Shown here: piece by piece, positions 33,862-62,172 of the stretch
Numbering within the stretch: the first letter of the stretch is position 1
Layout: each line of letters begins with the position of its first letter
IMG/VR virus record: IMGVR_UViG_3300045988_059940
Span: 38,650 to 102,649 of that record
Strand: one strand, 5' to 3'
DNA length: 64,000 nucleotides
Origin: a virus
Translations under genes and position numbers: made by a program
Notes under the pieces: model-generated
What the model was told of the DNA's origin: nothing
The model's input: only the letters and a program-made list of their open reading frames with translations
The model's database searches: none

Positions 33862-34317
33862 ATGGCAATTAAATGTTTTAAACATGAAAACAATTCTAAG
33901 GCTTACATTGACAGTAAACACATCTGCTATGTAAGAGAATGGTCAGACGGAGAAACAGAAATAGCCACAGTAGATGGAGGTTCAACCTATGTGAAACAAA
34001 GTGTAGAGTCTGTTGTAAGTTGGTGGAAGAAACAACAAGAAACGGACGTAAAAGAGCCTAAGTTCAAAGAGGTTGACGATGTTTATACAATTAGCTTGGC
34101 TAACATAAACAATAGAAGGTATCACGTTGTGGAGGCGCTCAAAGAAGTGCTTAACTTTCACTTAGATGAAAAAAGAAGTTTAGGTGAAAGCAGCAGACTA
34201 ACCGTACTTATAACAAGAAACAAAGTAGAAGCTATGGAGGTATGGGCAAAACTAAAAGCAAGATTGTTCTGTGTCGGTGTCAATGTAATTCTTGAAATAG
34301 ATTCAGTAAGAGAATAG
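33862..34317 (+). CDS. Protein with a ribosomal bL12 (L7/L12) C-terminal-domain-like module
   Basis: The segment ...RYHVVEALKEVLNFHLDEKRSL...KVEAMEVWAKLKARL..GVNVILE matches the bL12 CTD pattern. The track ORF starts at GTG 33766, but ATG 33862 is preferred. The terminal codon is TAG. Confidence 0.45.
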   Translation: MAIKCFKHENNSKAYIDSKHICYVREWSDGETEIATVDGGSTYVKQSVESVVSWWKKQQETDVKEPKFKEVDDVYTISLANINNRRYHVVEALKEVLNFHLDEKRSLGESSRLTVLITRNKVEAMEVWAKLKARLFCVGVNVILEIDSVRE

Positions 34318-34506
34318 ACAACAAGATGGTAAAGTTACGGCTCCTAAAAGATTGTAAGATTGTTATATCTGACAATACTTTAAAAGTATTTAAAGACAAT
34401 AATAATTTTACAGTAGAAATGCAAGCAAAAAAATATTGCAATTGCAGAATACGATAGTTTTGTTGATATTTTATCTAATCTTCCCGTCGAAAAGAAAACT
34501 AGCGAA

Positions 34507-34779
34507 TTGAAAAAACCTGTAAAAGTTTATAAAGTTCGATTGGTACACGTACTCGGCGACAGACTTAGAGCAATAAAAGCGGTTAAAGAAATACTTAATC
34601 TCTGCTTAGCAGACGCAAAAGATTATTGCAGAATTGAAGAGTCAAACAAAACTGAATCAATAGTTGTATGTACAACAACAAATAAAGAAGAGGCCTTGAA
34701 AACATGGTCAAAGTTTAAAGAAGAACTAAAAGACACCAACGTTAAAGTAGATTTCAATGAGTACACATCAGAACAATAA
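34507..34779 (+). CDS. bL12 C-terminal-domain-like protein
   Basis: VKVYKVRLVHVLGDRLRAIKAVKEILNLCLADAKDY...NKEEALKTWSKFKEELKDTNVKVDF aligns with E. coli bL12 [34 protein letters not shown]...[22 protein letters not shown]. The start codon is uncertain: it may be TTG, or it may lie further upstream. Confidence 0.5.
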   Translation: MKKPVKVYKVRLVHVLGDRLRAIKAVKEILNLCLADAKDYCRIEESNKTESIVVCTTTNKEEALKTWSKFKEELKDTNVKVDFNEYTSEQ

Positions 34780-35173
34780 AAAGACAACTGCTCTCACAGA
34801 AGCAATGCTGCCCAAATTACGCAAAACGGTCCACATCGAAGGCGAAAAGAAGCAAAAATCTTTCGCCAAGCATAGGCGCAAATCCTATGTGTATGATGCT
34901 GAAAAAGACAAATACGTCAAGGTCTGGCGTAATCCTCCTAAGAAAGATATGACCAAAAAAGAGCTCAAAGAGTTCTACGGTCATGGATTCAAAGTGACAT
35001 TTACTCCTGTTCGAGAAATAGAACTGAAAAAGTTCAACATCACTCTACGCTTCAACCGTAGCAATCAATTTATTGATTTTACGGGAGTTGAAGACAAAGA
35101 GGATATACAAATGGTTTCATCTGTACTCGGACAACCAGTAGGGAAAGTATTGCAATTCTTCCAAGACATCTAG
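34757..35173 (+). CDS. Hypothetical basic protein (138 aa)
   Basis: Track ORF with TAG as the terminal codon. Confidence 0.6.
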   Translation: MSTHQNNKKTTALTEAMLPKLRKTVHIEGEKKQKSFAKHRRKSYVYDAEKDKYVKVWRNPPKKDMTKKELKEFYGHGFKVTFTPVREIELKKFNITLRFNRSNQFIDFTGVEDKEDIQMVSSVLGQPVGKVLQFFQDI

Positions 35174-35174
35174 T

Positions 35175-35393
35175 ATGAGGTTTCAAAATCAACTCCATCA
35201 ACCTAGGAAAAAGACTAAAACGGTCGATAAACTAGGTAATCAGAGAAGGCGTATGTGGTTTAAGTGTGGTAATTCAACCATGCTCTTTACCGAATGTACA
35301 CCAGAAGCAGCCAAATGCCTAAACCGCTCATTAAAAGAACTGTTACAGGCATACGGCTGCAAGTTAGAAGGAACATTTATTGTAACAAAATGA
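35175..35393 (+). CDS. Hypothetical protein (72 aa)
   Basis: Track ORF. Confidence 0.5.
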   Translation: MRFQNQLHQPRKKTKTVDKLGNQRRRMWFKCGNSTMLFTECTPEAAKCLNRSLKELLQAYGCKLEGTFIVTK

Positions 35394-35815
35394 ACGAAAG
35401 AGTGACTTTGCTCCAAGCTAAACGATTACGTAGGCTTGGATATAATAAACCATGTTCAACGTATCATTGCGCAGCAGGCAACCAAATCAAGGTAGACAAA
35501 CCTATGAATTGGAATGCCGAAAAACGGCAATTTTGGTACGATAACTCGAATGAACATCAATGTACCTCTATTCCTAAATGTGATGATGTTATCAATTGGT
35601 TAAGAGAGAAATATAAAATTATAGCAACTACATTTGCTTTTAGAAGTATGTCACCTGATACAGAAACTATACGATATGAAACGCACGCTTCGTGTCGTGA
35701 AAAATCTAAGTGTAAACTTATATTTGCAAGAAAAAGGTTCTATAAAGATATTTTCGCTGCTAAACGTGGCATCATCACTAAGTGTTTAACTTACATAGAA
35801 TCATTATCAAAATGA
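35390..35815 (+). CDS. Hypothetical protein (141 aa)
   Basis: ATG 35390 overlaps the upstream TGA (ATGA) and is in frame with track ORF 35294..35815. Confidence 0.55.
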   Translation: MNERVTLLQAKRLRRLGYNKPCSTYHCAAGNQIKVDKPMNWNAEKRQFWYDNSNEHQCTSIPKCDDVINWLREKYKIIATTFAFRSMSPDTETIRYETHASCREKSKCKLIFARKRFYKDIFAAKRGIITKCLTYIESLSK

Positions 35816-36174
35816 CAAAAGAACTTAGCCCCAAATGGCTCATCATAGCATTTATTACAATGCTACTATTGTTGTTTGCCAAAAATGTATTTGGTCAAAC
35901 AAAGACAACGGTAAAACCAGATACTGTGTTGTGTAAGAATGAATGTATTGTAAAATATGTTCAGACTGAAACAAAGTCTGGTAAGGTGAAAACCTACGCT
36001 GTTTACAAAGACGAAAAGAATGGTATCGAGGAGTTAATTCCTATATCTCAAACCGTTCTAGATTACGTAAAACTATGCGGTCAGAATAACTTGAAACCTA
36101 CATTAGGTATTAAAGTTAAGAATGGCCAAATAGTATCTCTCATTCGGTACAAGCCTAAATTTGTTAAAAAATGA
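35812..36174 (+). CDS. Secreted or membrane-anchored hypothetical protein
   Basis: ATG 35812 follows ATTATCAAA, and the N-terminal hydrophobic signal is ...LLLLFAKNVFGQ. Confidence 0.55.
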   Translation: MTKELSPKWLIIAFITMLLLLFAKNVFGQTKTTVKPDTVLCKNECIVKYVQTETKSGKVKTYAVYKDEKNGIEELIPISQTVLDYVKLCGQNNLKPTLGIKVKNGQIVSLIRYKPKFVKK

Positions 36175-36611
36175 AACAAGGCAATGTTGTACGAAGGATA
36201 ACAACAAATGGTACGCTGGTTGGCGCTTATTACATGGTTCATAAAGCCAAAGGTAATGAGTTGCTAGCCAGCTCACCAGCTGGCGATAAACCAGTAGTGT
36301 TAAATAAGGATGAATTTGTCAAAATCCCAAAATATATCTTACGTGTAAATAAAACTACATTTAAGAAAGTATTAAATGGTTTAAGAACAATAGAACGAGA
36401 ACCGTCTAAAAACTGGGAGAAAGTCTATGATGCAAACGGAGATGGTATAATCGCGGTTTACAATGTAGAATTAGACCAATATTTATACTTTGAGTATGGT
36501 AACGTAACGAAAGTATTACGTACAAACATACTTGGAGAAAATAGATTTGGTCAATTGAGACAACTTCAACCATTAATCAGAGTTGAACTAAAAACTAGAA
36601 TTTGGTTATGA
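36171..36611 (+). CDS. Hypothetical protein (146 aa)
   Basis: Track ORF with ATGA coupling. Confidence 0.6.
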   Translation: MKQGNVVRRITTNGTLVGAYYMVHKAKGNELLASSPAGDKPVVLNKDEFVKIPKYILRVNKTTFKKVLNGLRTIEREPSKNWEKVYDANGDGIIAVYNVELDQYLYFEYGNVTKVLRTNILGENRFGQLRQLQPLIRVELKTRIWL

Positions 36612-37258
36612 TAACATTTGAAAGATTCTTAGAACTTTTTTGTAAAAAGGCTAGAATTAAATACGTATCGTTAGCAAAAACGCGACAACAAATACGATTG
36701 AATTTCACCGAATTATGCCACAAAGATATTATCAACGGAGTATACATCAAGAAATATAAAGTATATTTTGAACGATTGAATGTATTCTATAATATAGGAA
36801 ATTGTACAGAAGACTTTCCATCAAAAGATGAATATGTGTGTATTTTCGTTGAAAATAATCCTGAGATAATTATATCTAAAAAAGCAAAAGCATATTGTGT
36901 TAACAGTAGTGTAGGATTGTTCAAAAACGCAAAAGCATGCTGTATACGTTGTGATATACGTTGTTTTGAAAATTCAAAAGTTATTGCATATAAATGTGAT
37001 AATATCACAATGCACGCTAATACGAAAGGATTATTTAAATGTTGTAGTGACATAACAGCAGAATGTAATGCAACAATTAAACTTCTTGGTCATTGTATGG
37101 CGTATGCCACTGGTGATGCGGTTATCACTGCGAGTGAGATGTGTTATGTAGCTGCAACAGATAATGTGAAAATAACTGCAAAACAATACACTTATGCTCT
37201 TATTTATAAAAATGTAACAATTGAAGCAGATGAAACATGTTCAGTTAGAAGATTATGA
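36602..37258 (+). CDS. Hypothetical Cys-rich repeat protein (218 aa)
   Basis: Track ORF with a repetitive pattern suggestive of a beta-helix. Confidence 0.55.
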   Translation: MVMITFERFLELFCKKARIKYVSLAKTRQQIRLNFTELCHKDIINGVYIKKYKVYFERLNVFYNIGNCTEDFPSKDEYVCIFVENNPEIIISKKAKAYCVNSSVGLFKNAKACCIRCDIRCFENSKVIAYKCDNITMHANTKGLFKCCSDITAECNATIKLLGHCMAYATGDAVITASEMCYVAATDNVKITAKQYTYALIYKNVTIEADETCSVRRL

Positions 37259-37443
37259 AAACTCCAAAACCAGGTCAATTTGCTAATATTAACGGTGTAA
37301 TTGTACGTGCTGTTGTGCGTAAATCTGGATGTAAAGGATGTATGTTTGACAACCTGTTCGGCTGTCCTCGAATGAAAGACGAGCGTAGCAAAGAGTCACG
37401 TATTGACTGTGAGTTAGCAGGAATTATATTCAAAAAGATATGA
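37255..37443 (+). CDS. Hypothetical protein (62 aa)
   Basis: Track ORF with ATGA coupling. Confidence 0.5.
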   Translation: MKTPKPGQFANINGVIVRAVVRKSGCKGCMFDNLFGCPRMKDERSKESRIDCELAGIIFKKI

Positions 37444-37799
37444 ATACATTACAAAAAGCACTGAAACGAAGGTTAGACTGTTTTCTTATCGGTCTATGTG
37501 GAGAAGAAGACTTGAAAGACAAATATAACATGGCTTATATTATTCTTCGCGGCAAACTGACACCTAGATTTTTGTACATACACGAAAAAGAGTTATATGA
37601 ACTCGGATATTCCTTAGACAAAGTGGTCGAAGGTAAAGTATGTATAATTACAAAAAGTGGTACAGAATATAAAAACTGTGAATGTATTTGTTATACAAAA
37701 TACAATTGCAGCGTAGAAAATGGGAATATAGTCATAATAAGTGGCAAAGTACATTGTATCACGAGAGCTTTATTCGTACAAAAGAGAACAACAAACTGA
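37440..37799 (+). CDS. Hypothetical protein (119 aa)
   Basis: Track ORF with ATGA coupling. Confidence 0.55.
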   Translation: MNTLQKALKRRLDCFLIGLCGEEDLKDKYNMAYIILRGKLTPRFLYIHEKELYELGYSLDKVVEGKVCIITKSGTEYKNCECICYTKYNCSVENGNIVIISGKVHCITRALFVQKRTTN

Positions 37800-37836
37800 A
37801 TGTCAAATTGTATGACAAATCACAAATGATGTATAT

Positions 37837-38070
37837 ATGAAAAAATTATTTGGCAAAGGCCTAACATTCTTATACGGAAATATACTGCTGGTAATGGCTG
37901 TAATTCCGTTGGTAGAGTTAATTACAAAACCGCAACTTATGACGGGATTTAGTACATTGGCTCTAAGTTTAAACTTGATAATATTAATAATATTAATGTT
38001 GTCAGGCTGTGTAATAGTTTATTTTGGTTGGTACCGCATAGTGGAAGAAGACCAGACTGAAAAAGACTAA
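37837..38070 (+). CDS. Small membrane protein (77 aa)
   Basis: Two hydrophobic segments. Confidence 0.55.
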   Translation: MKKLFGKGLTFLYGNILLVMAVIPLVELITKPQLMTGFSTLALSLNLIILIILMLSGCVIVYFGWYRIVEEDQTEKD

Positions 38071-38076
38071 AAATCA

Positions 38077-38103
38077 AGAGGGGTGGAATCAATCCATCCC
38101 TCT
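38077..38103 (+). terminator. Strong hairpin after gene 37837..38070
   Basis: AGAGGGGTGGA-ATCAA-TCCATCCCTCT forms an 11-bp stem with one G.U pair. There is no U-tract. Confidence 0.45.
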
Positions 38104-38286
38104 ACAAAAGACTTTTAATGTGGCCAAAGACAGTTGCAAGCCTGTAAACACAGAGCAAAAAGTCCATTTTACTTATTTAATTCAATTTTAAATGTTTAAC
38201 GTTATTATCTTTAATAAGCAAACAGAATGCCAGTATTAGCGAATACTTTTGAAGTATAGTGCTTGTGAAAGTATTATACTTTTTAT

Positions 38287-38373
38287 GCCTCCATGTTGTA
38301 ACTAGGTAGCCAAGGTAGACTTAAAATCTACTGAACAGTAATGTTCGTATGGGTTCGAATCCCATTGGAGGTA
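38287..38373 (+). tRNA. tRNA-Leu (UAA), class II
   Basis: GCCTCCA / GTAGA-CTTAAAA-TCTAC / variable arm TGAACAGTAATGTTCGT / ATGGG-TTCGAAT-CCCAT / TGGAGGT-A. Confidence 0.9.
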
Positions 38374-38446
38374 CTACGGTTTTTCCAAGTTTCCATAAAA
38401 CTGGATATTAAATATTTAATAAAAACTTTCAAAAATTATCAAAATT

Positions 38447-38878
38447 ATGAAACATTTATTTAGTGCAGTAATAGCATTTATTTTAATCGTTGCTGCATTG
38501 TGTGGAATTATGAGCCTGACTTCTTGTCGAGGTGAATCGCCACAAGAAAAACAAAAAGAGTTTGCAAAACAGTATGAACTGTATGCAAACCCAGAGTTCT
38601 CTTCTTTTGAAGAAGCACTCGACTATCAAGCTGCTGACATTAAGCAGTTTAGAGAGGACTCTGTATTTCGATGTATACCCGAAGAGTCATTGGAAAAAGT
38701 TATCATCGTATTACAGAACACTGGTGCCAAACTGTCAAAAAGTACAATTGCCGAACAATACTTAGAAGGCAAGAAGATATTTGACAACCTCGAACCGAAG
38801 ATAGAACACAAACAAGTCCAAGAGGAGATTGACAGTATCGCATCGTTACAACTAACAACAACTTCAAAAGATGAATAG
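38447..38878 (+). CDS. Lipoprotein (143 aa)
   Basis: The signal peptide carries the lipobox LTSC, and the start context is ATTATCAAAATTATG. The terminal codon is TAG. Confidence 0.6.
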   Translation: MKHLFSAVIAFILIVAALCGIMSLTSCRGESPQEKQKEFAKQYELYANPEFSSFEEALDYQAADIKQFREDSVFRCIPEESLEKVIIVLQNTGAKLSKSTIAEQYLEGKKIFDNLEPKIEHKQVQEEIDSIASLQLTTTSKDE

Positions 38879-39320
38879 GGCGCTCGTTGTGCGCTATTAT
38901 GGCGCAGAATTGAACGAGGAACAAATTGCAAAGATTGCAGTTATTGTTTCTCAAATGGTCAAAGAAGAAGACAAAAACAAGATTTCTATTGCAGTGTTCG
39001 ATGCAAACAACATCGACAATGCAATACTTAACTTTACGCCAATTGTTCAAAGGAAAGACGAAATCGTAGAACTAGTCAATCTCATGAAAACAAGACTGGG
39101 CTATACGGATTCGAAGCCAGCAATTACGTATGTTTTTGCTATTCTGGACAAAGTAAAGAGTGATAATGACTTTTTACACGACTTTATGCAAGTACATAGT
39201 GTATTGTCAAAAATAGACGAAACACAATTTGCCAACATTGCTAAAAAATGCAATGTAAAGAAACATTTCATTGAAACAATGTACAGCATAGGCAACCGAA
39301 TCTTCTTCAATGTGTGCTAA
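38871..39320 (+). CDS. Hypothetical protein (149 aa)
   Basis: Track ORF. Confidence 0.55.
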   Translation: MNRALVVRYYGAELNEEQIAKIAVIVSQMVKEEDKNKISIAVFDANNIDNAILNFTPIVQRKDEIVELVNLMKTRLGYTDSKPAITYVFAILDKVKSDNDFLHDFMQVHSVLSKIDETQFANIAKKCNVKKHFIETMYSIGNRIFFNVC

Positions 39321-39453
39321 AAAGTATGACGACCAACACAAGGTAGTCAAAAACGGAAAACAAGAACGCGCTAAACACGTAAATGCCATCCCGTATAAGC
39401 GCGAAAAATACAAATATGATGGCGATAGTAAGAATTTTTAAATCATTATCAAA

Positions 39454-39927
39454 ATGGCAAAAGAACAAAAGAAAGTAGAACAACCTGTTACTTTGAGCAT
39501 GGAAAACGTAGTAGACAATATCCGAAAGGATAACACTCTACAACGTAAGAACATTGATGCAGCAATCGAAAAGATTGCTCAGCAAAAAGACGAGAAGCAG
39601 CAGAAAGAAGCTATGGACGCAATGTTGCGTGCTGACTTCAATGTTAAGAAGTCGTTGTTGCAGCTACGTGCTCGTCGTGGTGAAGAGAAAGCCACGAAAG
39701 AAGCTCTCGTGAGGAACGCTGCTTTCCTTAACAGACTTACTGGTCGTGACGGAGAAGGCAAAGAACTTCCTGCCGACCAAGTTATTACTCCCAACGAGTA
39801 TGGTCAACTTCTTGAAGAGTCTAACAGAAAGACCAAAGAAGACATTAGGAAGGTAAACGAAGAGCTCGAAAAGCACACACGCGAATTGCGTGACTCTTTC
39901 GAGGGTCAATATTGCTATTGGTGGTAA
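39454..39927 (+). CDS. Hypothetical charged helical protein (157 aa)
   Basis: Track ORF with start context ATTATCAAAATG. It looks G+C-richer than neighbouring genes. Confidence 0.65.
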   Translation: MAKEQKKVEQPVTLSMENVVDNIRKDNTLQRKNIDAAIEKIAQQKDEKQQKEAMDAMLRADFNVKKSLLQLRARRGEEKATKEALVRNAAFLNRLTGRDGEGKELPADQVITPNEYGQLLEESNRKTKEDIRKVNEELEKHTRELRDSFEGQYCYWW

Positions 39928-39930
39928 CAC

Positions 39931-40369
39931 CTGGTGATGTACAAAAATCAGTATTCAAAATCGAGAGTCTTAGAACCAGTGATTAGCAGAGGAGGAAGGG
40001 AATTAGTTTAACGTTGGACGGATGTTAGTGTATAGAACACCTCGTCTGGTGAATTAACACCAGCTACAAGAGCCTTTGAGCCAGTAGGAATACGAACTTC
40101 TGAAAATACGGAAGTAAAACTATATTAGTATCAAAAATACGTTGCATCTGAGCCAGAGAGCCGAACAAAAAGGTTTAGAGAAACATAATGATGTTCGTGC
40201 AATATATCAAGAGATACGCGTGTCGTAACAAGAACCATTGAGTCAGTTTACATAAACACGTATATTTACCTGTTTAATTGCGTTCTAAGCAATCATAACG
40301 TATTGGATGGATTAGCTACCCAGAAGGTATAATATATGCGCTTAAAACAAAAAAGAATAGGGTCTTTTT
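39931..40369 (+). ncRNA. ORF-free structured region (candidate ncRNA or 3' UTR)
   Basis: About 440 nt without an ORF, ending at the terminator at 40370-40401. Confidence 0.3.
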
Positions 40370-40401
40370 AGTACGTAGAGAAGGCCTATCTACGTACTTT
40401 T
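40370..40401 (+). terminator. Rho-independent terminator directly abutting tRNA-Arg
   Basis: AGTACGTAGA-loop-TCTACGTACT forms a 10-bp stem followed by TTT. Confidence 0.7.
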
Positions 40402-40474: not shown

Positions 40475-40490
40475 CTAAAACGTAATCAAT

Positions 40491-54995: not shown

Positions 54996-55736
54996 ATGTT
55001 AGTATTACCTACAACGAAAATTCCAGCTAAGTCTACAAATCCGAAGTATTTAATTATATACGGATTACCTAAATCTGGCAAAACGTCAGCAGTAGCACAG
55101 CTAGAAAATAATTTGATTATAGACCTAGAAGGCGGTTCTACGTTTATTGATGCAATGTCAATACAATGTAGAACTATAAACGAATTAGGCGAAGCCGCAC
55201 AAGCAATTCGCGCTAAGAATGAAGAAGTAGGAAAAAACTTTTACAAACATATAACCATTGACAATGCTACGCGATTAGAAGATATTTGTCTATCATTTGC
55301 AGCACAGCTTTATAGGAAAACAGAGCTTGGAAAGAATTGGAAAGGAGATGACGTAACAACGTTACCTCGTGGTGCTGGATATAAGTATCTACGAGACGCG
55401 GTAAAAAAGGTTATAGATATGTTTAAAGACTTGTGTGATGAGTTTATTCTCATTGGACATGTCAAAGATAGCATTATCGAGAAAGATGGCGAAGAAGTGA
55501 CCGCTAAGGAGATAGACCTTGTCGGCAAACTTGGTAAAATTATATGCGGATTGTCAGATGCAGTAGGATACATCTATCGCAAGGGAAATGAAACCCATAT
55601 CTCATTTAAAGGAGGTACTGACGAAACTATAATGGAAGCAAGAGCTAAGCATATTGCTGGTAAAGATATAGTAATCGCCACTGGAAACGAAGATGGTTCT
55701 ATCACTACGTATTGGGATAGAATCTATAAAGATTAA
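54996..55736 (+). CDS. RecA-like / AAA_24 (Sak4-like) ATPase
   Basis: The Walker A motif is YGLPKSGKTS and the Walker B-like segment is FILIGH. Confidence 0.55.
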   Translation: MLVLPTTKIPAKSTNPKYLIIYGLPKSGKTSAVAQLENNLIIDLEGGSTFIDAMSIQCRTINELGEAAQAIRAKNEEVGKNFYKHITIDNATRLEDICLSFAAQLYRKTELGKNWKGDDVTTLPRGAGYKYLRDAVKKVIDMFKDLCDEFILIGHVKDSIIEKDGEEVTAKEIDLVGKLGKIICGLSDAVGYIYRKGNETHISFKGGTDETIMEARAKHIAGKDIVIATGNEDGSITTYWDRIYKD

Positions 55737-55767
55737 AAACAAATTTAGAACTTATAAGTCAATAATT

Positions 55768-56328
55768 ATGTACAATACGAAAACAGCCGTAACACAAGAG
55801 CAAGAATTTACTTCTGCTTATATGCCCGCAGGTATTAACGAAAACGTAACTTTAAAAGAAGTAAACGTACGTAAGTCACCTACGGACAAAGATTTTTTAG
55901 AGTTTATCTTCGAAGATGTTGACGGAAAAACCGCTAGCATGACAGAATGGAAAAACGAAAAGAACATGTGGATTAAGACCGACGAAGATTTGCAACGTCG
56001 TGATGATTTACAGTTCGGTCGTATTATGCAGATTATAAACTGCTACTATCCTGCAATCGAAGGTTCTTTCGATACATTTAAGGAGATGATTGAGTGGGTT
56101 AAGAAACAGCTTGACCCAATGATTAATACTAAGAAGGCATTGCGTCTAAAAGTAGTTTACGATAACCGTAACTACACGCGCGTATCTTCAAATGGTATCT
56201 TTGTAGAACCAATGACCGTTGAAGACTCTAAAATTAAGAAGTTTGCTCGTGACACTTTCGAGCGACAAATTGTTGCTGACGAAGAGTCAAAACAGGCGGC
56301 AGCAGCTGATAGTGACCTGCCTTTCTAA
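55768..56328 (+). CDS. Single-stranded DNA-binding protein candidate
   Basis: The C-terminal tip ...AAADSDLPF resembles the bacterial SSB tail (DDDIPF). The gene sits in the replication module. Confidence 0.5.
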   Translation: MYNTKTAVTQEQEFTSAYMPAGINENVTLKEVNVRKSPTDKDFLEFIFEDVDGKTASMTEWKNEKNMWIKTDEDLQRRDDLQFGRIMQIINCYYPAIEGSFDTFKEMIEWVKKQLDPMINTKKALRLKVVYDNRNYTRVSSNGIFVEPMTVEDSKIKKFARDTFERQIVADEESKQAAAADSDLPF

Positions 56329-56363
56329 AACTATCCAGTTAAGGGTTCTGTAAAAACCCATAA

Positions 56364-56458
56364 GACACGAATGTGGAACTACAAAAAGTTGATTAATCAT
56401 AGGTTCTTATTTATTGTTGTATTGTAGTTGAGGGGTTCGATTCCCCTCCGTGTCACCA
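56364..56458 (+). ncRNA. tRNA-like element (92 nt plus encoded CCA) with a non-canonical core
   Basis: The acceptor is GACACG/CGTGTC, the T-arm is AGGGG-TTCGATT-CCCCT, and A73 plus CCA are encoded. The core is replaced by an 8-bp helix (AACTACAA/TTGTAGTT) enclosing about 37 nt. Confidence 0.45.
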
Positions 56459-56510
56459 AACAGAGTATTTTTATAAAACGTTTTGTTTGTGAAACTTAGT
56501 ATTAGTTTCA

Positions 56511-56570
56511 GGCAATAGTCTTGGAGATTTCTTTGTAAAAAGATTAGCGGTTCGATTCCGTGTATTGCCA
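56511..56570 (+). ncRNA. Mini tRNA-like element (60 nt)
   Basis: GGCAATA / TCTTT-GTAA-AAAGA hairpin / GCGG-TTCGATT-CCGT / TATTGCC-A. Confidence 0.5.
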
Positions 56571-56589
56571 CTAACTTAAATTATTTCAT

Positions 56590-56922
56590 ATGAAATTTAA
56601 AATTAAAAAGATTGATTACGGAGAAGGTAATGTTCATTATGTTATATTAAAACGAAATTGGCTAGGATTATATGTAAAATTCTTCTATAAAATAAATGGG
56701 TACCATATATATGAATGGAATGATGTGTGTATGAAGCAATTCAATCGAAAAATACTACATTTGACACAAATGGCGTTCGATGAATGCATTATATTAAAAC
56801 ATCTACTTGGTTATAGTGTATTAGACTATTTTACAGACATAGATGCAGCAAAGCATTTTATCAGACTAGTTATAAAATATAAAAAGAAACGTAAAAAAAT
56901 AACATATGAAAAATATCCGTAA
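56590..56922 (+). CDS. Hypothetical protein (110 aa)
   Basis: Track ORF with AT-rich coding composition, embedded in the tRNA-like array. Confidence 0.5.
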   Translation: MKFKIKKIDYGEGNVHYVILKRNWLGLYVKFFYKINGYHIYEWNDVCMKQFNRKILHLTQMAFDECIILKHLLGYSVLDYFTDIDAAKHFIRLVIKYKKKRKKITYEKYP

Positions 56923-56928
56923 TTTTTA

Positions 56929-56989
56929 GGTAATAGCTTCGGAAGCCTCTTCATAAAAAGAGAGTATTGGTTCGACTCCAATATTACCA
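56929..56989 (+). ncRNA. Mini tRNA-like element (61 nt)
   Basis: GGTAATA / GCTT-CGG-AAGC / CTCTT-CATAAA-AAGAG / TTGG-TTCGACT-CCAA / TATTACC-A. Confidence 0.5.
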
Positions 56990-57433
56990 CAACATGCAGT
57001 CTGGTGTAATTAACCCAAGTTAGAATGTGTACAATTCGATGCGGGTGGAGTATGAAAAGAAAATAAGTAGAAGTAGAAAAACTCGCGAATAAGTATATTT
57101 TAAAAGTTTTCAAAGTAATATCTTGCAGACCATCTATGAGGATGGAGGTTGGAGATAACAAGTTTATCTACTGCATTATGGGGGTATATGGCTTTGATTT
57201 TAGACGGAAGATATGTAAGCATGTAGAGCTTGTAACAGCTCTTAAATATAGTTACAATAAAATTAACCGACAACGTTATTTTGTCAATTGCAGCTTAATT
57301 GAATAATAGTAAATTTGGCGCACATTACACAGAACCACTCAAAGTAACTGTATATGTAATGTAATTATTTGGGATTCAAAATGTTTATTCATAATTTTAA
57401 ACATGTAGAAAGCATATAATAACTCTGAAAGAC

Positions 57434-57458
57434 GTGGGTTCGAATCCCACTACCTCCA
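57434..57458 (+). ncRNA. Orphan T-arm plus 3' acceptor strand (tRNA 3' half-like)
   Basis: GTGGG-TTCGAAT-CCCAC-TACCTCC-A. The only candidate 5' partner (GGAGGTT) lies about 290 nt upstream at 57144. Confidence 0.35.
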
Positions 57459-57560
57459 CAAGGCCATTCTTTTGCGTTTTAAGCGCTTAATACAGCTCTC
57501 TAACACATTTCATCACCTCCCAGTGTTGAGTGGCTTAGAACAAAAAAGAATGGCTAATTT

Positions 57561-57606
57561 GAGTAATAATATAGGAACAAGGAAGGTTCAAATCCTTCAT
57601 TACTCA
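57561..57606 (+). ncRNA. Minimal tRNA-like minihelix (46 nt)
   Basis: GAGTAAT / 14-nt linker / GAAGG-TTCAAAT-CCTTC / ATTACTC-A. Confidence 0.5.
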
Positions 57607-57630
57607 CACTAACTAAGAACTTATAAGTCA

Positions 57631-58602
57631 ATGTATAGTACAAAAACCGCAATAACCATGAGTTTACGTGATTTGTTGTCTATGTTAGATGATGAAAGCA
57701 TTTACACTTATTATTTAGGTTCTATTAAAGTAAATAAGCTAATCAATTCACCTATAAGAGATGGAGATAAAAATCCATCATTTGCAATATTTAGAGGAAA
57801 AGAAGGAGGTTTATTCTTTAAAGACCACGGAACTGGCGAAGGAGGTAACTCATTTAAATTCGTTAAGTTAATGGCCAAAATAGATACACGAGAAGAGCTA
57901 GAAAAAGAACTTCTACGTATAGTCAAAAAAACTAATCCAAGTATGATAGTAAAGAATCATACGTATTTTACGGTAGAACATACAGTAGATATAGGAGTAG
58001 TAAGACAGCCATTTACGGAAGTAGATAAGAGGTTTTGGAAGCAATTTCATATATCTCTTGATACTTTACGTAAATACCAAGTTTTTAGCATTAAATACTT
58101 TCTTTGTAATAGAATCGTCAAAGGAATCTACAAAGAAGATAGTCCTATGTATGCATATAAAGTGTTAGATAAGTTTAAGATTTATCGACCACTAGCGTCG
58201 AAGTATACTAAATGGCGTTCGAATCTGACAAATTCGTATGTTCAGGGACTATCCGAAATACCTATCGACGGAGGTAATCTGCTAATAATCACAAAATCAT
58301 TGAAAGATGTTATGTGTTGTTATGAGATGGGATTTAATGCAATAGCAGCTTCAAGTGAAACTTCTTTTATACCAGAAGATATACTAGAAGACTTAAAAAA
58401 TAAGTGGAAAAATATTGTAATACTATACGATAGAGATAAAACAGGAATGTTGAAGGCTAGACAATATAGTAGACAGTATAAATTAGATGCATTTTTTATC
58501 CATAGGAGATTTAAAGCAAAAGATTTATCTGATGCAATAAAACTAAATGGATTTGACCAAGTAAACAAATGGTTATCAAAAACATTAGAAAATTATGTTT
58601 AA
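57631..58602 (+). CDS. DnaG/TOPRIM-type DNA primase
   Basis: The N-terminal primase-like segment is DKNPSFAIFRGKEGGLFFKDHGTGEGGN, and the TOPRIM region is LLIITKSLKDVMC...AASSE...ILYDRDKTG. Confidence 0.65.
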   Translation: MYSTKTAITMSLRDLLSMLDDESIYTYYLGSIKVNKLINSPIRDGDKNPSFAIFRGKEGGLFFKDHGTGEGGNSFKFVKLMAKIDTREELEKELLRIVKKTNPSMIVKNHTYFTVEHTVDIGVVRQPFTEVDKRFWKQFHISLDTLRKYQVFSIKYFLCNRIVKGIYKEDSPMYAYKVLDKFKIYRPLASKYTKWRSNLTNSYVQGLSEIPIDGGNLLIITKSLKDVMCCYEMGFNAIAASSETSFIPEDILEDLKNKWKNIVILYDRDKTGMLKARQYSRQYKLDAFFIHRRFKAKDLSDAIKLNGFDQVNKWLSKTLENYV

Positions 58603-58837
58603 TTTTATTTTATTAACGTTTGTTGCTTTACTCGGTAGCGGACTAGGTTGTTATTTATATGATGAACTAGTATGTTGGAAAGTAATAAAAACGAAAACGA
58701 TAAAAGTTCAACTCTTCGAAGGACAAGTACACTCTTTTGTTAGTGTACTAAATAAAAAATCAAATGAGATAATTAATGTCTATTTTGATAAAGACGGAGC
58801 TTATTCTGTAAAATATGCGAGGTCAAGGGAGAGTTAA
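58595..58837 (+). CDS. Small membrane protein (80 aa)
   Basis: N-terminal TM segment. Confidence 0.5.
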   Translation: MFNFILLTFVALLGSGLGCYLYDELVCWKVIKTKTIKVQLFEGQVHSFVSVLNKKSNEIINVYFDKDGAYSVKYARSRES

Positions 58838-59210
58838 AAATGCGACAAGAGTCGATAAATATGGTCTACGTTTCCGTAGTAAACTCGAATGCTATACTTA
58901 TGAAGCTTTTATGAAGGCAGGAATACCTGTTCAGTATGAGCCAAAGCATTTTGAACTATTGCCTAAGTTTGAATACATGGGTGAAAAAATTCGAGCTATT
59001 ACATATCTACCAGATTTTATCGGGAAAGGATTTGTAGTAGAATGTAAAGGACTAATTGGTGACAGTTTTCCTTTACGTTATAAACTTTTCAAATACTACC
59101 TAAAAAGACACAACAGTAAAATGAAGTGTTATTTAGTGAGAAATCATAAACAGGTAGACGAAATGATTCAAGAATTATTAAATCAGAAATCATGCAAAAA
59201 AACTTCATAA
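58815..59210 (+). CDS. PD-(D/E)XK nuclease (DUF1064-like resolvase/endonuclease)
   Basis: Contains RSKLECYTYEAF...YLPDF...VVECKG. Confidence 0.5.
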   Translation: MRGQGRVKNATRVDKYGLRFRSKLECYTYEAFMKAGIPVQYEPKHFELLPKFEYMGEKIRAITYLPDFIGKGFVVECKGLIGDSFPLRYKLFKYYLKRHNSKMKCYLVRNHKQVDEMIQELLNQKSCKKTS

Positions 59211-59977
59211 AAAACGGAGAAGAAATAAGGTTTAAGGACAACATTCGTGGTGAAGAATATTCATTAGAAGGCGACAAAGTATATAGGGCCGATACCGACG
59301 AGTATGGCGAAATCATTTTAGTTAGAATGCCAAACTTTATAATGCCTAGCAAAATATATAGTACGGAAAGGAATGATGCTTTCAAACAAAAAGTATTAAA
59401 CCATTATGAAATTATGAATCGAGGCGTTCTAGGCGTAATGTTATCTGGTCTTAAAGGTTCTGGCAAAACAATCACGGCAAAACAAATTGCTTTGGAATCA
59501 ACTCTTCCTATTATATTGATTGATAAATACTTTCATCCAAAAAACTTTAAAGAAATGATAAAAATGCTGGAAGACACACCAATTTGTATCATCTTCGATG
59601 AGATAGATAAGGTTGGAGATAGATACGATATGGAAGCATTGCTTTCTATGTTAGACGGAACTGATACGTTTGGAAATATATTGCTACTTCTCACATGTAA
59701 TGACGAAAGTAAGATAGACGAGAATATGAAAGACAGGTGTTCTCGAATACGTTACTGGAAATCTTTCAATGAAACACCGAAAGATGTAATCGAAGAAGTA
59801 GTTAAGGACAAACTTCAAAACAAAGAGTTGGTTGAGTTGGTTGTTAACTTCATCGAAAATAACTTTGACAAGTTGATATTTGACAACATTTGTGCATTTA
59901 TTGATGAGATTAACATGAATCCAAATATCTCATTTGACGAATTGTTTGAAGACATGAATCTTACTCCGAAAGAATAA
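59192..59977 (+). CDS. AAA+ ATPase
   Basis: The Walker A motif is GLKGSGKT and the Walker B motif is ICIIFDEID. Confidence 0.65.
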   Translation: MQKNFIKNGEEIRFKDNIRGEEYSLEGDKVYRADTDEYGEIILVRMPNFIMPSKIYSTERNDAFKQKVLNHYEIMNRGVLGVMLSGLKGSGKTITAKQIALESTLPIILIDKYFHPKNFKEMIKMLEDTPICIIFDEIDKVGDRYDMEALLSMLDGTDTFGNILLLLTCNDESKIDENMKDRCSRIRYWKSFNETPKDVIEEVVKDKLQNKELVELVVNFIENNFDKLIFDNICAFIDEINMNPNISFDELFEDMNLTPKE

Positions 59978-60077
59978 TGGAAATATTAATTCCATATTAC
60001 GAGGATAAAACAAAAACAATGCAACCAAATTGATATAACATGCGTTATTATGTCGATTAAATTAAATATAATAAGCA

Positions 60078-60629
60078 ATGGAAGAAGTTTGGAAAGCAGT
60101 TAATGGATATGAAGGTATATATGAAATTAGTAATTTAGGTAGAGTTAAATCGTTAAGTAGAACTATAAAAGCTAAATATGGACGTGCGACACATTATTCG
60201 GAACAAAAAATTAAAGGACGAATATTAAAGCCTAATTTTACAACATACGGTTATGCGTATGTTGCGTTGGCTAAAAATGGAAAAAATAAAACTACACTAA
60301 TCCATAGAATAGTAGCAGAAACATTTTTAGAAAATCCAGAAAACCTACCATGTATAAATCATAAGGATGAAAATCGAAAAAATAATAACGTATCAAATCT
60401 TGAATGGTGCTCTTATGCTTATAATAACACGTATAAGAATATACATTTAAGACGAAAAAAAACAAATAGAAAAATAATCCAATATGATTTAGACATGAAT
60501 GAATTAAAACGATGGGAAAGTATAACAGAAGCCGCTAATTACTATGATATAGAAACCAGTAATATTTCAGCGTGTTGTACTGGAAAACGTAACCATTGTG
60601 CTGGATTCAAATGGAGGTATTATGAATAA
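60078..60629 (+). mobile_element. Free-standing HNH homing endonuclease (NUMOD4 plus HNH_3 type)
   Basis: Contains WKAVNGYEGIYEISNLGRVKS and HRIVAETFLENPENLPCINHKDENRKNNNVSNLEW. Confidence 0.7.
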
Positions 60630-61647
60630 TTCAACCGAAAATTATTACTTAGACAATACAAGAATTTCCAACAGCAACATAGGCTGGTTCTTAAACAAAG
60701 GGCCAGCCTTTTTGCATTCTATGTTGAATGGTGAAGCTAGTGGGGAAAATACACCTCAACTAGCACTTGGTAGCATGATACATGAGTATCTATTACAGCC
60801 AGAAGAGTTCCATAAACACTATTTAGTGTGGGACAAAAGTAGACCTTCATCTGCACAGCAGGAGAAGTTCTGTCGGGCGTTAATTGCTACCACTGAAATA
60901 GAGCCAAATAAAGTCGTTCTAAGCGCTTATAAAGAAGCGTATAGTACAACAGGAAGGTCGGATGAAAAGATGCTCTCAGAGGGGCTTAAAATAGCCTCTA
61001 CGTTGAAGGATTATATAGACTTCCTAAAACAGAAAGATGGGCGTATTCTAATCTCACCATATCAAGCTTCACAGCTAATGAAAATTAGCGAAAATATATG
61101 GAAACATAAAAAAGCAAAAACGCTTCTCCAAACCCCTTGTGAGGTCAGAAAAGCGTATGGCGAAGCTCCTTTTACAGAAGAAGGAAAGCTACAATCAGTA
61201 TTATATCATGAGTTCCACATAAACTGGGAGTTCATGAATGTGAACTGTAAATCTTTACTTGACAGTTTATACCTCGATTTTGAAAATAAGAAGTGTATAC
61301 TGATGGACCTAAAAACCACAGCAAAGATTAACAAGTTTGAGGAAAGTATGAAAGACTACGATTACCTTAGACAATTATGTTTTTATACAAAAGCTATTGA
61401 GTGGTACTTAGAGAACGAACTTAACGAAGAGCCAGGAGAATGGTTATTTGAATGGTATATTATAGCCATTGATACCATAAGTGACAATAGTATACATGTA
61501 TTTGGTTTTACAGAAGACCAAGTATACAGTAGACTAGACACAATAGAACAAGCACTAAAAGACATAAAGTGGCATCAAGACAATAATCTCTGGACATATA
61601 GAAGAGAGTATTACGAAGGAGATGGCACTGAACAATTAAATTTATAA
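60622..61647 (+). CDS. PD-(D/E)XK (RecB/Cas4-like) exonuclease
   Basis: Contains GSMIHEYLL, LMDLKTT and QLCFYTKAIEW. The start is ATG 60622. Confidence 0.55.
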   Translation: MNNSTENYYLDNTRISNSNIGWFLNKGPAFLHSMLNGEASGENTPQLALGSMIHEYLLQPEEFHKHYLVWDKSRPSSAQQEKFCRALIATTEIEPNKVVLSAYKEAYSTTGRSDEKMLSEGLKIASTLKDYIDFLKQKDGRILISPYQASQLMKISENIWKHKKAKTLLQTPCEVRKAYGEAPFTEEGKLQSVLYHEFHINWEFMNVNCKSLLDSLYLDFENKKCILMDLKTTAKINKFEESMKDYDYLRQLCFYTKAIEWYLENELNEEPGEWLFEWYIIAIDTISDNSIHVFGFTEDQVYSRLDTIEQALKDIKWHQDNNLWTYRREYYEGDGTEQLNL

Positions 61648-61656
61648 TCAGAATCT

Positions 61657-61860
61657 ATGAATCAGAATTATATGACACAAGAAGAGGTTTTAAACGATAG
61701 TTTAGTTAATGCTACAATTGAAGCAGAAGCTGATAATATAGAAGCAGCTACAATGTTAACTGAATTAGCTGACAACGATGTTATTGACGAAGAGTTGTTA
61801 ACAGAAGAAGGAATCGCTCAACAAAGTGATTTATTTAGAACAATCTTAAACAAAAAGTAA
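61657..61860 (+). CDS. Small acidic protein (67 aa)
   Basis: Track ORF. Confidence 0.5.
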   Translation: MNQNYMTQEEVLNDSLVNATIEAEADNIEAATMLTELADNDVIDEELLTEEGIAQQSDLFRTILNKK

Positions 61861-62172
61861 GTGGATGTAAAAGATAAAATTATATGCTCTTACATATTTG
61901 AATTTAGTGAACTTTTTAAAAAGAAGTGTTTGTATTACAAACTAATAGCTTTACAGAATAAAACCGAAATATCGTTTTATTTTAACATTCAGTCTTTACT
62001 ACAATTAAATAATATCCGTAGAGAAATAAAAAAGAATGAATTGTTTATATCAGAAAGTGTTAGAAATGGATGTTTGTGTTTTACATTTAAAGTAAAAGAT
62101 AAACATACTTATACGCTTAGATATTTAGTAAAATTGTTATCGCTAGATTTAAGGTTAAAAAGAATTTGTTAG
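61861..62172 (+). CDS. Hypothetical protein (103 aa; GTG start, TAG terminal codon)
   Basis: Track ORF with a non-ATG start. Confidence 0.35.
   Translation: MDVKDKIICSYIFEFSELFKKKCLYYKLIALQNKTEISFYFNIQSLLQLNNIRREIKKNELFISESVRNGCLCFTFKVKDKHTYTLRYLVKLLSLDLRLKRIC

What the first reader, a model, noticed from the sequence alone, without database searches (positions are those of the whole stretch)
34315..62172. TAG is also the terminal codon of six plus-strand ORFs, suggesting a stage-dependent meaning
From 29.9 to 62.2 kb no plus-strand gene has an internal TAG. This includes the 625-codon PolB, the helicase, primase and ATPases.

Six ORFs in that span nevertheless end in TAG: 33862..34317, 34757..35173, 38447..38878, 42443..43852, 47192..47779 and 61861..62172.
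- For 42443..43852 a terminator-like hairpin starts 4 nt after the TAG.
- For 33862..34317 read-through adds only 4 codons before TAA; for 42443..43852 it adds 12 and for 47192..47779 it adds 14.
- For 34757..35173 the frame meets a second TAG after 10 codons and then TAA 3 codons later.
- For 38447..38878 and 61861..62172 read-through would add more than 40 codons of unlikely sequence.

Internal sense TAGs on the plus strand occur only in the 24.9-29.6 kb genes nearest the suppressor tRNA. This pattern fits the published idea that early genes are translated under the host code and late genes after the suppressor is expressed. Here both uses are visible within one window.
Basis: partly seen in the sequence, partly recalled or inferred. 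Interest (0 to 1): 0.65.

Follow-up and report, generated by a model that had tools for sequence, protein, structure and literature searches.

The report
TAG stops early genes, codes late
This gut crAss-like phage reads TAG as glutamine in its late virion genes but still uses TAG as an ordinary stop codon in six early genes, which is a correct observation of a two-code genome layout already described for these phages.

Summary
The window is about 64 kb of a crAss-like phage (Crassvirales, Suoliviridae/Oafivirinae-like). All six plus-strand ORFs exist and end in TAG.

- **Early block, 29.9-62.2 kb:** 43 genes and 7,748 codons carry no in-frame TAG.
- **Late genes, minus strand:** 10 genes carry 80 in-frame TAGs, which align to Gln in relatives.
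- **TAG is the true C-terminus:** For four of the six ORFs, orthologues in other TAG-recoded relatives have TAA or TGA at the same codon.
- **Turnover in both directions:** Four window TAA stops are TAG in relatives.
- **The two conserved "extensions" are not coding:** They are conserved intergenic DNA, and they stay conserved behind a TAA or TGA in relatives.
- **No backup-stop signal:** Read-through lengths are no shorter than chance (median 14 versus 8 codons, p=0.22).

The stage-dependent reading is plausible but inferred. The suppressor tRNA sits at the head of the late strand, a phage sigma factor lies in the TAG-free block, and a strong terminator separates the TAG-bearing plus-strand unit from the TAG-free block.

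This layout is already published as "dual-coded" early blocks with a "soft switch" (Mgcod; Borges, Yutin, Ivanova). Interest is therefore low.

The more interesting thing seen in passing is an ORF-free, covarying structured-RNA region of about 2.2 kb at 44.3-46.6 kb.

The parts
33862..34317 (+). TAG-terminated early ORF of 151 aa. It has a 60-aa N-terminal domain fused to an L7/L12-C-terminal-like domain. TAA follows 4 codons after the TAG, and the next gene's ATG is at 34326.
   Evidence: No orthologue with the same C-terminus was found, so the stop position is not independently verified.
34757..35173 (+). TAG-terminated early ORF of 138 aa, function unknown. TAG is the true terminus.
   Evidence: TAA sits at the same codon in L131 (78% aa) and in L128/L129 (46% aa), while the downstream DNA stays conserved. 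L005 has a 1-nt indel in the 'extension'.
38447..38878 (+). TAG-terminated early ORF of 143 aa with an N-terminal hydrophobic segment. The stop overlaps the start of the next gene (ATG 38871).
   Evidence: L008 has TAA at the homologous position, also overlapping the next gene's start. Read-through would add 50 codons in a wrong frame of the next gene.
42443..43852 (+). TAG-terminated early ORF of 469 aa, immediately downstream of the phage sigma-factor gene.
   Evidence: TAA at the same codon in L008 and L009 and in cr130. TAA ends the same lysine-rich C-terminal tail, outside the tblastn alignment, in L138, L139 and L141.
43852..43889 (+). Hairpin directly after the TAG of 42443..43852. It has no U-tract, and the in-frame TAA lies at its 3' foot.
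   Evidence: -18.9 kcal/mol, z=-4.97. Hairpins of different sequence sit at the same place in L008, L009 and L141.
47192..47779 (+). TAG-terminated early ORF of 195 aa, function unknown.
   Evidence: TGA at the same codon in L008 and TAA one codon earlier in L009. TAA in L138 and L140.
61861..62172 (+). TAG-terminated ORF of 103 aa and the last gene of the plus-strand block. It has a GTG start abutting the TAA of 61657..61860.
   Evidence: Third-position substitution bias 7/3/19 against L063. TAG is conserved in lineages A and B.
62187..62232 (+). Intrinsic terminator (GC-rich hairpin plus T-run) between the convergent gene blocks. It lies upstream of the first in-frame TAA/TGA after the 61861 ORF.
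   Evidence: -27.2 kcal/mol, z=-4.95, followed by UUUAUUUUUAU.
29953..62172 (+). Early/replication block compatible with the standard code: 43 genes with no in-frame TAG. It includes PolB, DnaB-like helicase, primase, Sak4-like ATPase, exonuclease and a sigma factor.
41402..41959 (+). Phage sigma factor gene. It is TAG-free and TAA-terminated, and is a candidate driver of later transcription.
   Evidence: phrog_1740, E=1.2e-22. Its role in timing is inferred.
24535..29356 (+). Plus-strand unit of 11 genes (DUF1599-like, phosphoesterase, ThyX and others) carrying 4 in-frame sense TAGs. It diverges from the minus-strand unit that holds the suppressor tRNA.
29633..29664 (+). Strong intrinsic terminator that closes the TAG-containing plus-strand unit.
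   Evidence: 13-pair stem followed by TTTATTTTTA.
22082..22170 (-). Amber suppressor tRNA (anticodon CUA), 89 nt with a long variable arm. It lies at the head of the late strand, upstream of dUTPase and the recoded virion genes.
   Evidence: ARAGORN. It falls below the Rfam tRNA threshold, and its best match is tRNA-Sec at 42.9 bits. The same tRNA is present in lineage A locus L012.
1546..21380 (-). Late virion/packaging genes with 76 in-frame TAG = Gln. They include portal 3352..5835 (7 TAGs), TerL 6712..8136 (5 TAGs) and a 2,599-aa protein (36 TAGs).

Best explanation
The window comes from a crAss-like phage with amber (TAG) reassigned to glutamine in only part of its genome.

**Early phase.** The infected cell decodes with the host's standard code, where release factor 1 reads UAG as stop. 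The 32-kb replication block is written to be read that way: it has no internal TAG, and it uses TAA, TGA and TAG interchangeably as terminators. The six TAG-ended ORFs are ordinary genes whose real C-terminus is at the TAG.

**Late phase.** The phage suppressor tRNA(CUA) at the head of the late strand accumulates, is charged with Gln and competes with RF1. The virion, packaging and some nucleotide-metabolism genes, which carry about 1.15% TAG codons, can then be translated in full.

**Consequence for early genes.** Any TAG-ended early mRNA still being translated would gain a tail of 4-50 residues. For the last gene, the ribosome would run into the terminator. These tails are by-products, not selected features.

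**Shown here:**
- The codon distribution between blocks.
- TAG = Gln in the late genes.
- True termination positions for four of the six genes.
- TAG and TAA/TGA turnover among relatives.
- No backup-stop signal.

**Inferred:**
- The timing of tRNA expression.
- Charging by the host GlnRS.
- A role for the phage sigma factor.
For: **Identity.** PolB is 71% identical to Crassvirales cr131_1 (taxonomy).

**Codon distribution.**
- 80 in-frame TAGs in 10 late genes, against 0 in 43 early genes; probability about 1e-39.
- Portal and TerL both contain TAG.
- Residues aligned to TAG fit Gln best: log-likelihood -43.4 against -69.4 for the next residue.
- Suppressor tRNA(CUA) at 22082-22170.

**Orthologous stops.**
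- 34757: TAG here, TAA in relatives.
- 38447: TAG here, TAA in a relative.
- 42443: TAG here, TAA in relatives.
- 47192: TAG here, TGA or TAA in relatives.
- Reverse cases: TAA in the window but TAG in relatives for 29953, 40931, 50073 and 54996.
- The relatives checked (lineages A and B, cr130, cr131, L077 which is the same contig as L009, and L115) are TAG-recoded in late genes.

**Architecture.**
- The genes around the suppressor tRNA (21.5-24.3 kb, minus strand) contain no TAG.
- A terminator at 29633-29664 separates the TAG-bearing unit from the TAG-free unit.
- A sigma factor lies in the TAG-free block.

**Literature.** The same architecture and model appear. Metaproteomics found no recoded peptides among early proteins.
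Against: - There are no expression data, so timing is inferred from gene order only.
- The suppressor tRNA is structurally unusual: it is below the Rfam tRNA threshold and resembles tRNA-Sec. Its charging with Gln is inferred from alignments alone.
- ThyX and other nucleotide-metabolism genes, which are usually early or middle genes, carry sense TAGs. The early/late split is therefore not purely functional.
- The stop positions of 33862 and 61861 could not be verified with a TAA/TGA orthologue.
- TAG stops are neither depleted nor enriched relative to composition (p=0.11). Selection on them cannot be demonstrated in either direction.
Confidence: 0.72

Rival explanations
1. TAG means Gln throughout the genome at all times (constitutive code 15). 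On this view the six 'terminal' TAGs are sense codons, and the true ends are the next TAA/TGA, giving short dispensable tails.
For: - The genome encodes its own suppressor.
- Public gene calls for two relatives (P0001, P0003) were made with Q at these positions.
- Four of the six tails are 14 codons or shorter.
Against: - No internal TAG in 7,748 early codons, against 1.15% in late genes. This shows TAG is not tolerated as a sense codon there.
- Orthologues end with TAA/TGA exactly at the TAG codon.
- The tails show no coding signature, and one is frame-broken in L005.
- The 38447 tail is 50 codons in a wrong frame of the next gene.
- The 61861 tail runs through an intrinsic terminator.
Confidence: 0.08
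2. There is no clean temporal switch. A weak suppressor competes with RF1 throughout infection (a 'soft switch'). Every TAG, early or late, then yields a mixture of terminated and read-through product, and early genes simply tolerate this.
For: - Pfennig et al. proposed this for the same class of genomes.
- TAG stops persist at 14% of early genes and turn over freely among relatives, as expected if read-through is cheap.
- Nucleotide-metabolism genes such as ThyX carry a TAG.
Against: - With 36 TAGs in a 2,599-aa protein, inefficient suppression would give almost no full-length product. Late suppression must therefore be efficient.
- The complete exclusion of TAG from early coding sequence implies a phase in which TAG is effectively a stop.
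Confidence: 0.17
3. The TAG-ended ORFs are not real genes, or their ends are assembly artefacts. The dual use would then be an annotation illusion.
For: - None of the six proteins matches a PHROG or Pfam family above threshold.
- 61861 lacks an ATG and abuts a TAA.
- A neighbouring gene (34326..34779) is frameshifted at an A7 run.
Against: - Five of the six have protein-level orthologues down to 27-67% identity.
- 61861 shows a 7/3/19 codon-position substitution bias.
- The TAGs are present in independent assemblies of lineage A (L005-L007) and, for 34757 and 61861, of lineage B as well.
Confidence: 0.03

Closest known systems
[quoted passage not shown]
   Same: [quoted passage not shown] - The Sup-tRNA(CTA) lies at the 5' end of the late strand.
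- Genes whose stops differ slightly between codes are treated as isoforms, and a 'soft switch' is proposed.
   Different: - Only 1 of the 6 TAG-ended genes here meets Mgcod's criterion of a stop difference under 30 nt (+15 nt). The others differ by 39-153 nt.
- The present analysis adds orthologue evidence that the TAG position is the real C-terminus.
- It also shows that TAG and TAA/TGA swap among recoded relatives.
Code-switch model for stop-codon-recoded phages (Borges et al., bioRxiv 10.1101/2021.08.26.457843, Nat Microbiol 2022; Ivanova et al. 2014, as cited in those papers)
   Same: - Early genes are standard-code compatible.
- Recoded stops are concentrated in structural and lysis genes.
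- A suppressor tRNA acts as the switch, and the host uses the standard code.
   Different: - No release factor or aminoacyl-tRNA synthetase gene was recognised among the proteins scanned here.
- A 5-kb nucleotide-metabolism unit, including ThyX, also carries sense TAGs.
TAG-to-Gln crAss-like phages of the Delta group (Suoliviridae) (Yutin et al. 2021, PMC7886860; proteomic validation in Peters et al. 2022, PMC9523058)
   Same: - Same virus order and family-level neighbourhood (cr131_1, cr130_1).
- TAG is reassigned to Gln mostly in late genes, with suppressor tRNAs present.
- No recoded peptides were found among early proteins.
   Different: The suppressor here is an 89-nt, long-variable-arm, tRNA-Sec-like molecule. 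In cr131 and cr130 it is a 73-74-nt tRNA annotated in the records as tRNA-Gln.
Context-dependent stop/sense codons in ciliates (Condylostoma, Parduczia); from my own knowledge, not checked here
   Same: One codon serves both as a sense codon and as a terminator within one genome.
   Different: - In ciliates the meaning is set by position relative to the mRNA 3' end, within one cell state.
- Here two of the six TAG stops sit inside operons (33862 and 38447).
- The distinction follows gene block, and presumably time.

Membership tests
TAG-to-Gln (code 15) recoded crAss-like phage | In-frame TAG in hallmark late genes (portal, TerL) that are intact only if TAG is read as sense | tested here: met
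   Portal 3352..5835 has 7 TAGs (phrog_6547, E=1.4e-160). TerL 6712..8136 has 5 TAGs (phrog_6681, E=1.1e-92).
TAG-to-Gln (code 15) recoded crAss-like phage | TAG positions align with glutamine in homologues | tested here: met
   After per-position weighting of the 23 TAG positions with data, Gln takes 11.0 of the weight. Log-likelihood is -43.4 for Q against -69.4 for the next best residue, K.
TAG-to-Gln (code 15) recoded crAss-like phage | Membership of Crassvirales by hallmark proteins and synteny | tested here: met
   PolB is 71% identical to cr131_1 (Suoliviridae, Oafivirinae). Gene order matches NC_055902 and NC_055901.
TAG-to-Gln (code 15) recoded crAss-like phage | Phage-encoded suppressor tRNA with anticodon CUA | tested here: met
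   22082-22170(-) was found by ARAGORN. It is non-canonical: below the Rfam tRNA gathering score, with tRNA-Sec as best match at 42.9 bits against a cut-off of 47.
Dual-coded early block (Mgcod sense) | Block without in-frame reassigned codon, coinciding with a strand switch and enriched in replication/transcription genes | tested here: met
   No TAG in 43 plus-strand genes. The block holds PolB, helicase, primase, exonuclease and a sigma factor.
Dual-coded early block (Mgcod sense) | Predictions under both codes are identical, or their stops differ by less than 30 nt | tested here: inconclusive
   37 of 43 genes are identical under both codes. Of the 6 TAG-ended genes, only 33862 (+15 nt) is within 30 nt. 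The others differ by 39, 45, 45, 132 and 153 nt.
Temporal code switch (Borges / Ivanova model) | Suppressor tRNA gene located upstream of the recoded late genes, within standard-code genes | tested here: met
   The tRNA lies between the TAG-free genes 22633..24271 and dUTPase 21496..22056, ahead of the genes with 14 and 36 TAGs.
Temporal code switch (Borges / Ivanova model) | Suppressor is expressed and active only after the early genes have been translated | not testable with these tools
   This needs time-resolved tRNA-seq or RNA-seq, Ribo-seq or proteomics in an infected host.
Temporal code switch (Borges / Ivanova model) | Accessory code-change genes (RF2, aminoacyl-tRNA synthetase) | not tested
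   The window's proteins were not scanned systematically for release factors or aaRS. None was seen among the 30 different proteins scanned.

The most novel reading that the evidence does not exclude
The TAG terminators of particular early genes could be a programmed off-switch rather than neutral stops.

Once the suppressor accumulates, these six proteins would be made with junk C-terminal tails. For 61861..62172, whose next TAA/TGA lies beyond an intrinsic terminator, the result would be a non-stop product. That product would be tagged for degradation by tmRNA, possibly by the phage's own tmRNA at 57180-57461, whose tag ORF ends in UAA. Selected early functions would thereby be shut down late in infection.

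The evidence does not exclude this. However, TAG swaps freely with TAA/TGA at the same codons in relatives about 80% identical, and the tmRNA is absent from lineage B. Both argue against a conserved regulatory role.
Probability: 0.05. Interest if true: 0.55.

Novelty: already known. Interest (0 to 1): 0.22.

Why it matters
The finding is a clean worked example of a genome that uses one codon in two ways. TAG is a terminator in genes translated under the host's code, and it is glutamine in genes translated after a phage suppressor tRNA appears.

- **Annotation:** Neither code 11 nor code 15 alone annotates such phages correctly. Code 15 lengthens six early proteins, and code 11 shatters the late ones.
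- **Small addition to the literature:** TAG stops in the early block are real termini. They turn over with TAA/TGA among recoded relatives and show no selected backup stops, which suggests that late read-through of early genes is cheap.
- **No new biology:** The principle has been published since 2014 and was described in this form in 2022.

Tried and rejected
1. **Backup-stop hypothesis.** I compared distances to the next TAA/TGA after TAG stops with those after other stops. There was no difference (median 14 versus 8, p=0.22). Rejected.
2. **Read-through extensions as real coding sequence.** The 34757 and 47192 extensions looked conserved in L008. Orthologues with TAA/TGA at the stop keep the same downstream DNA, and L005 has a frame-breaking indel. 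Rejected: they are conserved intergenic sequence.
3. **+4 nucleotide context as a discriminator.** TAG stops are followed by T3/A1/G1/C1, and sense TAGs by A38/G21/T16/C5. There are too few stops, and the sense pattern is what the purine-rich first codon position generally seen in coding sequence (own knowledge, not measured here) would give. Uninformative.
4. **TAG-stop depletion or enrichment against composition.** 6 of 43 observed against 25% expected, p=0.11. Not significant.
5. **Function of the six proteins.** PHROGs and Pfam gave nothing above threshold.
6. **Link between the phage tmRNA and recoding.**
   - nhmmer found the window's tmRNA only in lineage A.
   - blastn against the phage collection found nothing.
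   - Rfam found a permuted tmRNA in cr130 and none in L063 or L077.
   - No consistent association, so I did not pursue it.
7. **The 'tRNA-Tyr(ata)' of relatives as an alternative suppressor.** The window has a 94% identical copy at 32701-32772, but its anticodon loop is not CUA. Rejected.
8. **ORF 29801..30406 with two TAGs.** It overlaps the TAG-free ORF 29953..30498. Its aa identity to close relatives is only 47-59%, which is low for DNA this similar. I treated it as the wrong frame.

Full report
**What the window is.**
- PolB (51091..52968) is 71% identical to that of uncultured phage cr131_1 and 63% to that of cr272_1. cr131_1 and cr130_1 are classified as Crassvirales, Suoliviridae, Oafivirinae.
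- IMG/VR holds near-identical contigs (about 95% nt, called "lineage A" here: L005-L007, L012, L110). It also holds a relative about 80-90% identical ("lineage B": L008, L010, L063) and more distant ones.
- The minus strand from 1 to 21.4 kb encodes virion and packaging genes: major head protein, portal and TerL.
- The plus strand from 24.5 to 62.2 kb encodes nucleotide metabolism, a sigma factor, PolB, DnaB-like helicase, Sak4-like ATPase, primase, a resolvase, an ATPase and an exonuclease.

**Checking the observation.**
- The six ORFs are in frame, have no internal stop and end in TAG.
- In 43 plus-strand genes between 29.9 and 62.2 kb (7,748 codons) there is no in-frame TAG. Stops are TAA 28, TGA 9 and TAG 6.
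- Ten late genes (6,944 codons) contain 80 in-frame TAGs, which is 24.5% of all Gln-type codons. They end in TAA (9) or TGA (1).
- At the late rate, zero TAGs in the early block has a probability of about 1e-39.
- Residues aligned to the window's TAGs in non-close relatives fit Gln far better than any other residue: log-likelihood -43.4 against -69.4.
- The plus-strand unit at 24.5-29.4 kb carries four in-frame TAGs.
  - Codon 113 of 24936..25406 is TAG in lineages A and B and even in cr131 and cr130 at 50% aa identity.
  - Codon 158 of ThyX aligns with Thr or Gln in relatives.

- **42443..43852:** L008 (72% aa), L009 (41%) and cr130 have TAA at exactly the codon that is TAG here. L138, L139 and L141 end in TAA on the same lysine-rich C-terminal tail, which lies outside the tblastn alignment.
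- **47192..47779:** L008 has TGA at the same codon, and L009, L138 and L140 have TAA at or next to it.
- **38447..38878:** L008 has TAA at the homologous position. In both genomes the stop overlaps the next gene's ATG.
- **34757..35173:**
  - The pattern TAG, 10 codons, TAG, 3 codons, TAA is conserved in lineages A and B and in L130. It looked like a real extension.
  - However, L131 (78% aa) has TAA in place of the first TAG with the same downstream sequence, and L128/L129 (46% aa) also end in TAA there.
  - L005 carries a 1-nt indel inside the "extension".
  - The conserved stretch is therefore intergenic DNA, not coding sequence.
- **47192 downstream sequence:** the same holds for the 14 codons after this gene. 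They are conserved behind a TGA in L008, with substitutions spread over all codon positions.
- **61861..62172:**
  - It is a genuine coding ORF, with substitutions against L063 at codon positions 1/2/3 of 7/3/19.
  - It starts at a GTG that abuts the TAA of the upstream gene, and its TAG is conserved in lineages A and B.
  - Its first in-frame TAA/TGA lies beyond a canonical intrinsic terminator, so TAG is the only stop that gives a defined product.
- **33862..34317:** no orthologue shares its C-terminal domain, so the stop position is unverified.
- **Reverse cases:** the window has TAA where relatives have TAG in 29953..30498, 40931..41314, 50073..50399 and 54996..55736.
- **Recoding status of the relatives:** those for which late-gene DNA was on hand (lineages A and B, cr130, cr131, L077 which is the same contig as L009, and L115) have TAG in-frame in late genes.
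- Within this recoded clade, TAG therefore behaves as an ordinary, freely exchangeable terminator in the early block.

**What is not supported.**
- Distances from a TAG stop to the next TAA/TGA are 4, 12, 14, 14, 43 and 50 codons. These are not shorter than the distances after TAA/TGA stops (median 14 versus 8; p=0.22).
- TAG stops make up 14% of early stops. This is not different from the 25% share of TAG among off-frame stop triplets (p=0.11).
- The +4 context is uninformative.

**Architecture bearing on timing (inference).**
- The suppressor tRNA(CUA) lies on the late strand, upstream of dUTPase and the heavily recoded genes, among five TAG-free genes.
- The TAG-bearing plus-strand unit diverges from the same intergenic region at about 24.3-24.5 kb. 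It is closed by a strong intrinsic terminator at 29633-29664, ahead of the TAG-free block.
- A phage sigma factor (41402..41959) is encoded in the TAG-free block. It could direct host RNA polymerase to later promoters.
- The hairpin after 42443..43852 is real (z=-4.97), and a hairpin of different sequence recurs there in relatives. It lacks a U-tract.
- None of this measures expression.

**Comparison with what is known.**
- The partition of TAG/TGA reassignment to late genes of crAss-like phages was reported by Yutin et al..
- The code-switch model comes from Borges et al., building on Ivanova et al..
- Pfennig et al. described the early block as "dual-coded". They treated genes whose stops differ slightly between codes as isoforms, placed the Sup-CTA tRNA at the 5' end of the late strand, and proposed a "soft switch".
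- Peters et al. confirmed TAG = Gln by proteomics and saw no recoded peptides among early proteins.
- A 2026 preprint repeats this description for another Crassvirales genome.
- The finding is therefore a correct instance of a published pattern.
- The increments here are the orthologue proof that the TAG positions are true C-termini, the TAG and TAA/TGA turnover in both directions, and the lack of a backup-stop signal.

**Verdict.**
- Novelty: already known. Interest: low.

**Seen in passing.** Several things outside the finding may deserve more attention than the finding itself.
- The first is a roughly 2.2-kb ORF-free region at 44333-46575.
  - It is conserved at the nucleotide level across relatives whose flanking proteins are only 30-45% identical.
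  - A 280-nt block of it shows strong base-pair covariation.
  - It has no Rfam match.
- The others are listed under the items noticed in passing.

Noticed in passing
window 44333-46575 (+); the same place in NC_055902 (84378-86416) and NC_055901 (86533-88559): A roughly 2.2-kb stretch with no ORF on either strand and no annotation in the relatives' records.
- Blocks of it are 71-81% nt-identical in phages whose flanking proteins are only 30-45% identical, and tblastx shows no preferred frame.
- A 9-sequence alignment of 44812-45090 gives 51 consensus pairs, 23 of them with compensatory double changes.
- 93.9% of cells are paired, against 36-42% for slid partners, and 0 of 500 shuffles reach the observed value.
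- Invariant G-U pairs point to a plus-strand transcript.
- There is no Rfam 15 match at E<=0.1.

This is a candidate large structured RNA conserved in Oafivirinae-like crAss phages.
   Followed up: partly
window 22082-22170 (-): The amber suppressor tRNA is 89 nt with a long variable arm. It misses the Rfam tRNA gathering score, and its best match is tRNA-Sec (42.9 bits against a cut-off of 47) with an 8-bp acceptor stem. Alignments nevertheless say TAG = Gln, and cr131/cr130 use ordinary 73-74-nt tRNA(CUA). How a type-II-like tRNA would be charged with Gln is unexplained.
   Followed up: partly
L010 about 5230-6245 (minus strand), the locus homologous to window 22082-22170: In lineage B the suppressor-tRNA locus is split by an insert of about 1 kb encoding a 304-aa HNH endonuclease. 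tRNA-like 5' and 3' halves flank the insert, and ARAGORN calls no tRNA(CUA) there. This may be an intron-containing suppressor tRNA.
   Followed up: partly
window 57180-57461 (+): A phage-encoded tmRNA (Rfam RF00023, 95.4 bits). It is reduced in size, and its tag reading frame ends ...SIAA followed by UAA.
- It is present in lineage A only.
- cr130 has a permuted tmRNA at a different site.
- A link to ribosomes that read through TAG stops into transcript ends is speculative.
   Followed up: partly
window 33774-33855 (+): RAGATH-12 RNA motif (Rfam RF03149, 89 bits). It ends 7 nt upstream of the ATG of the first TAG-terminated gene, 33862..34317. The relatives cr130 and cr131 carry RAGATH-1 hammerhead ribozymes instead.
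   Followed up: no
window 33862-34779 (+): Two ribosomal-protein-L7/L12-C-terminal-like domains.
- One is fused to the 60-aa 'MAIKCFK...WWKK' protein in 33862..34317.
- The other is a separate gene, 34326..34779, which is intact in L130 and L131 (PF00542) but broken in the window by an extra A in an A7 run at 34428-34434. The broken reading frame ends in a TAG at 34455.

The cause could be an assembly error, a pseudogene or slippage.
   Followed up: partly
window 32701-32772 (+): A tRNA-like element 94% identical to the 'tRNA-Tyr(ata)' that ARAGORN calls in L010 and L131. It has an odd anticodon loop (AGATATT) and is not called in the window.
   Followed up: no
window 24936-25406 (+), codon 113: This sense TAG is conserved as TAG in lineages A and B, and also in cr131 and cr130, which are only about 50% identical in this protein. 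That is unusual persistence for a codon that could be CAA or CAG.
   Followed up: no
window 5840-8136 (-): TerL is split. Residues 1-474 are in 6712..8136 and the last 108 residues are in 5840..6166. The two parts are separated by 546 nt, and about 100 residues present in cr130 TerL have no counterpart in the window's two ORFs. cr131 has a 1.6-kb gap at the same place. An intron or other insertion is likely.
   Followed up: no
window 47780-48073 (+): The intergenic sequence just after the 47192 gene's stop (CTGCGGTCAGGGG...GTGAATTGTACCGAAGGTTAAGCT) is conserved in L008 behind a TGA stop. It has no significant fold of its own (z=0.35). Its function is unknown.
   Followed up: no
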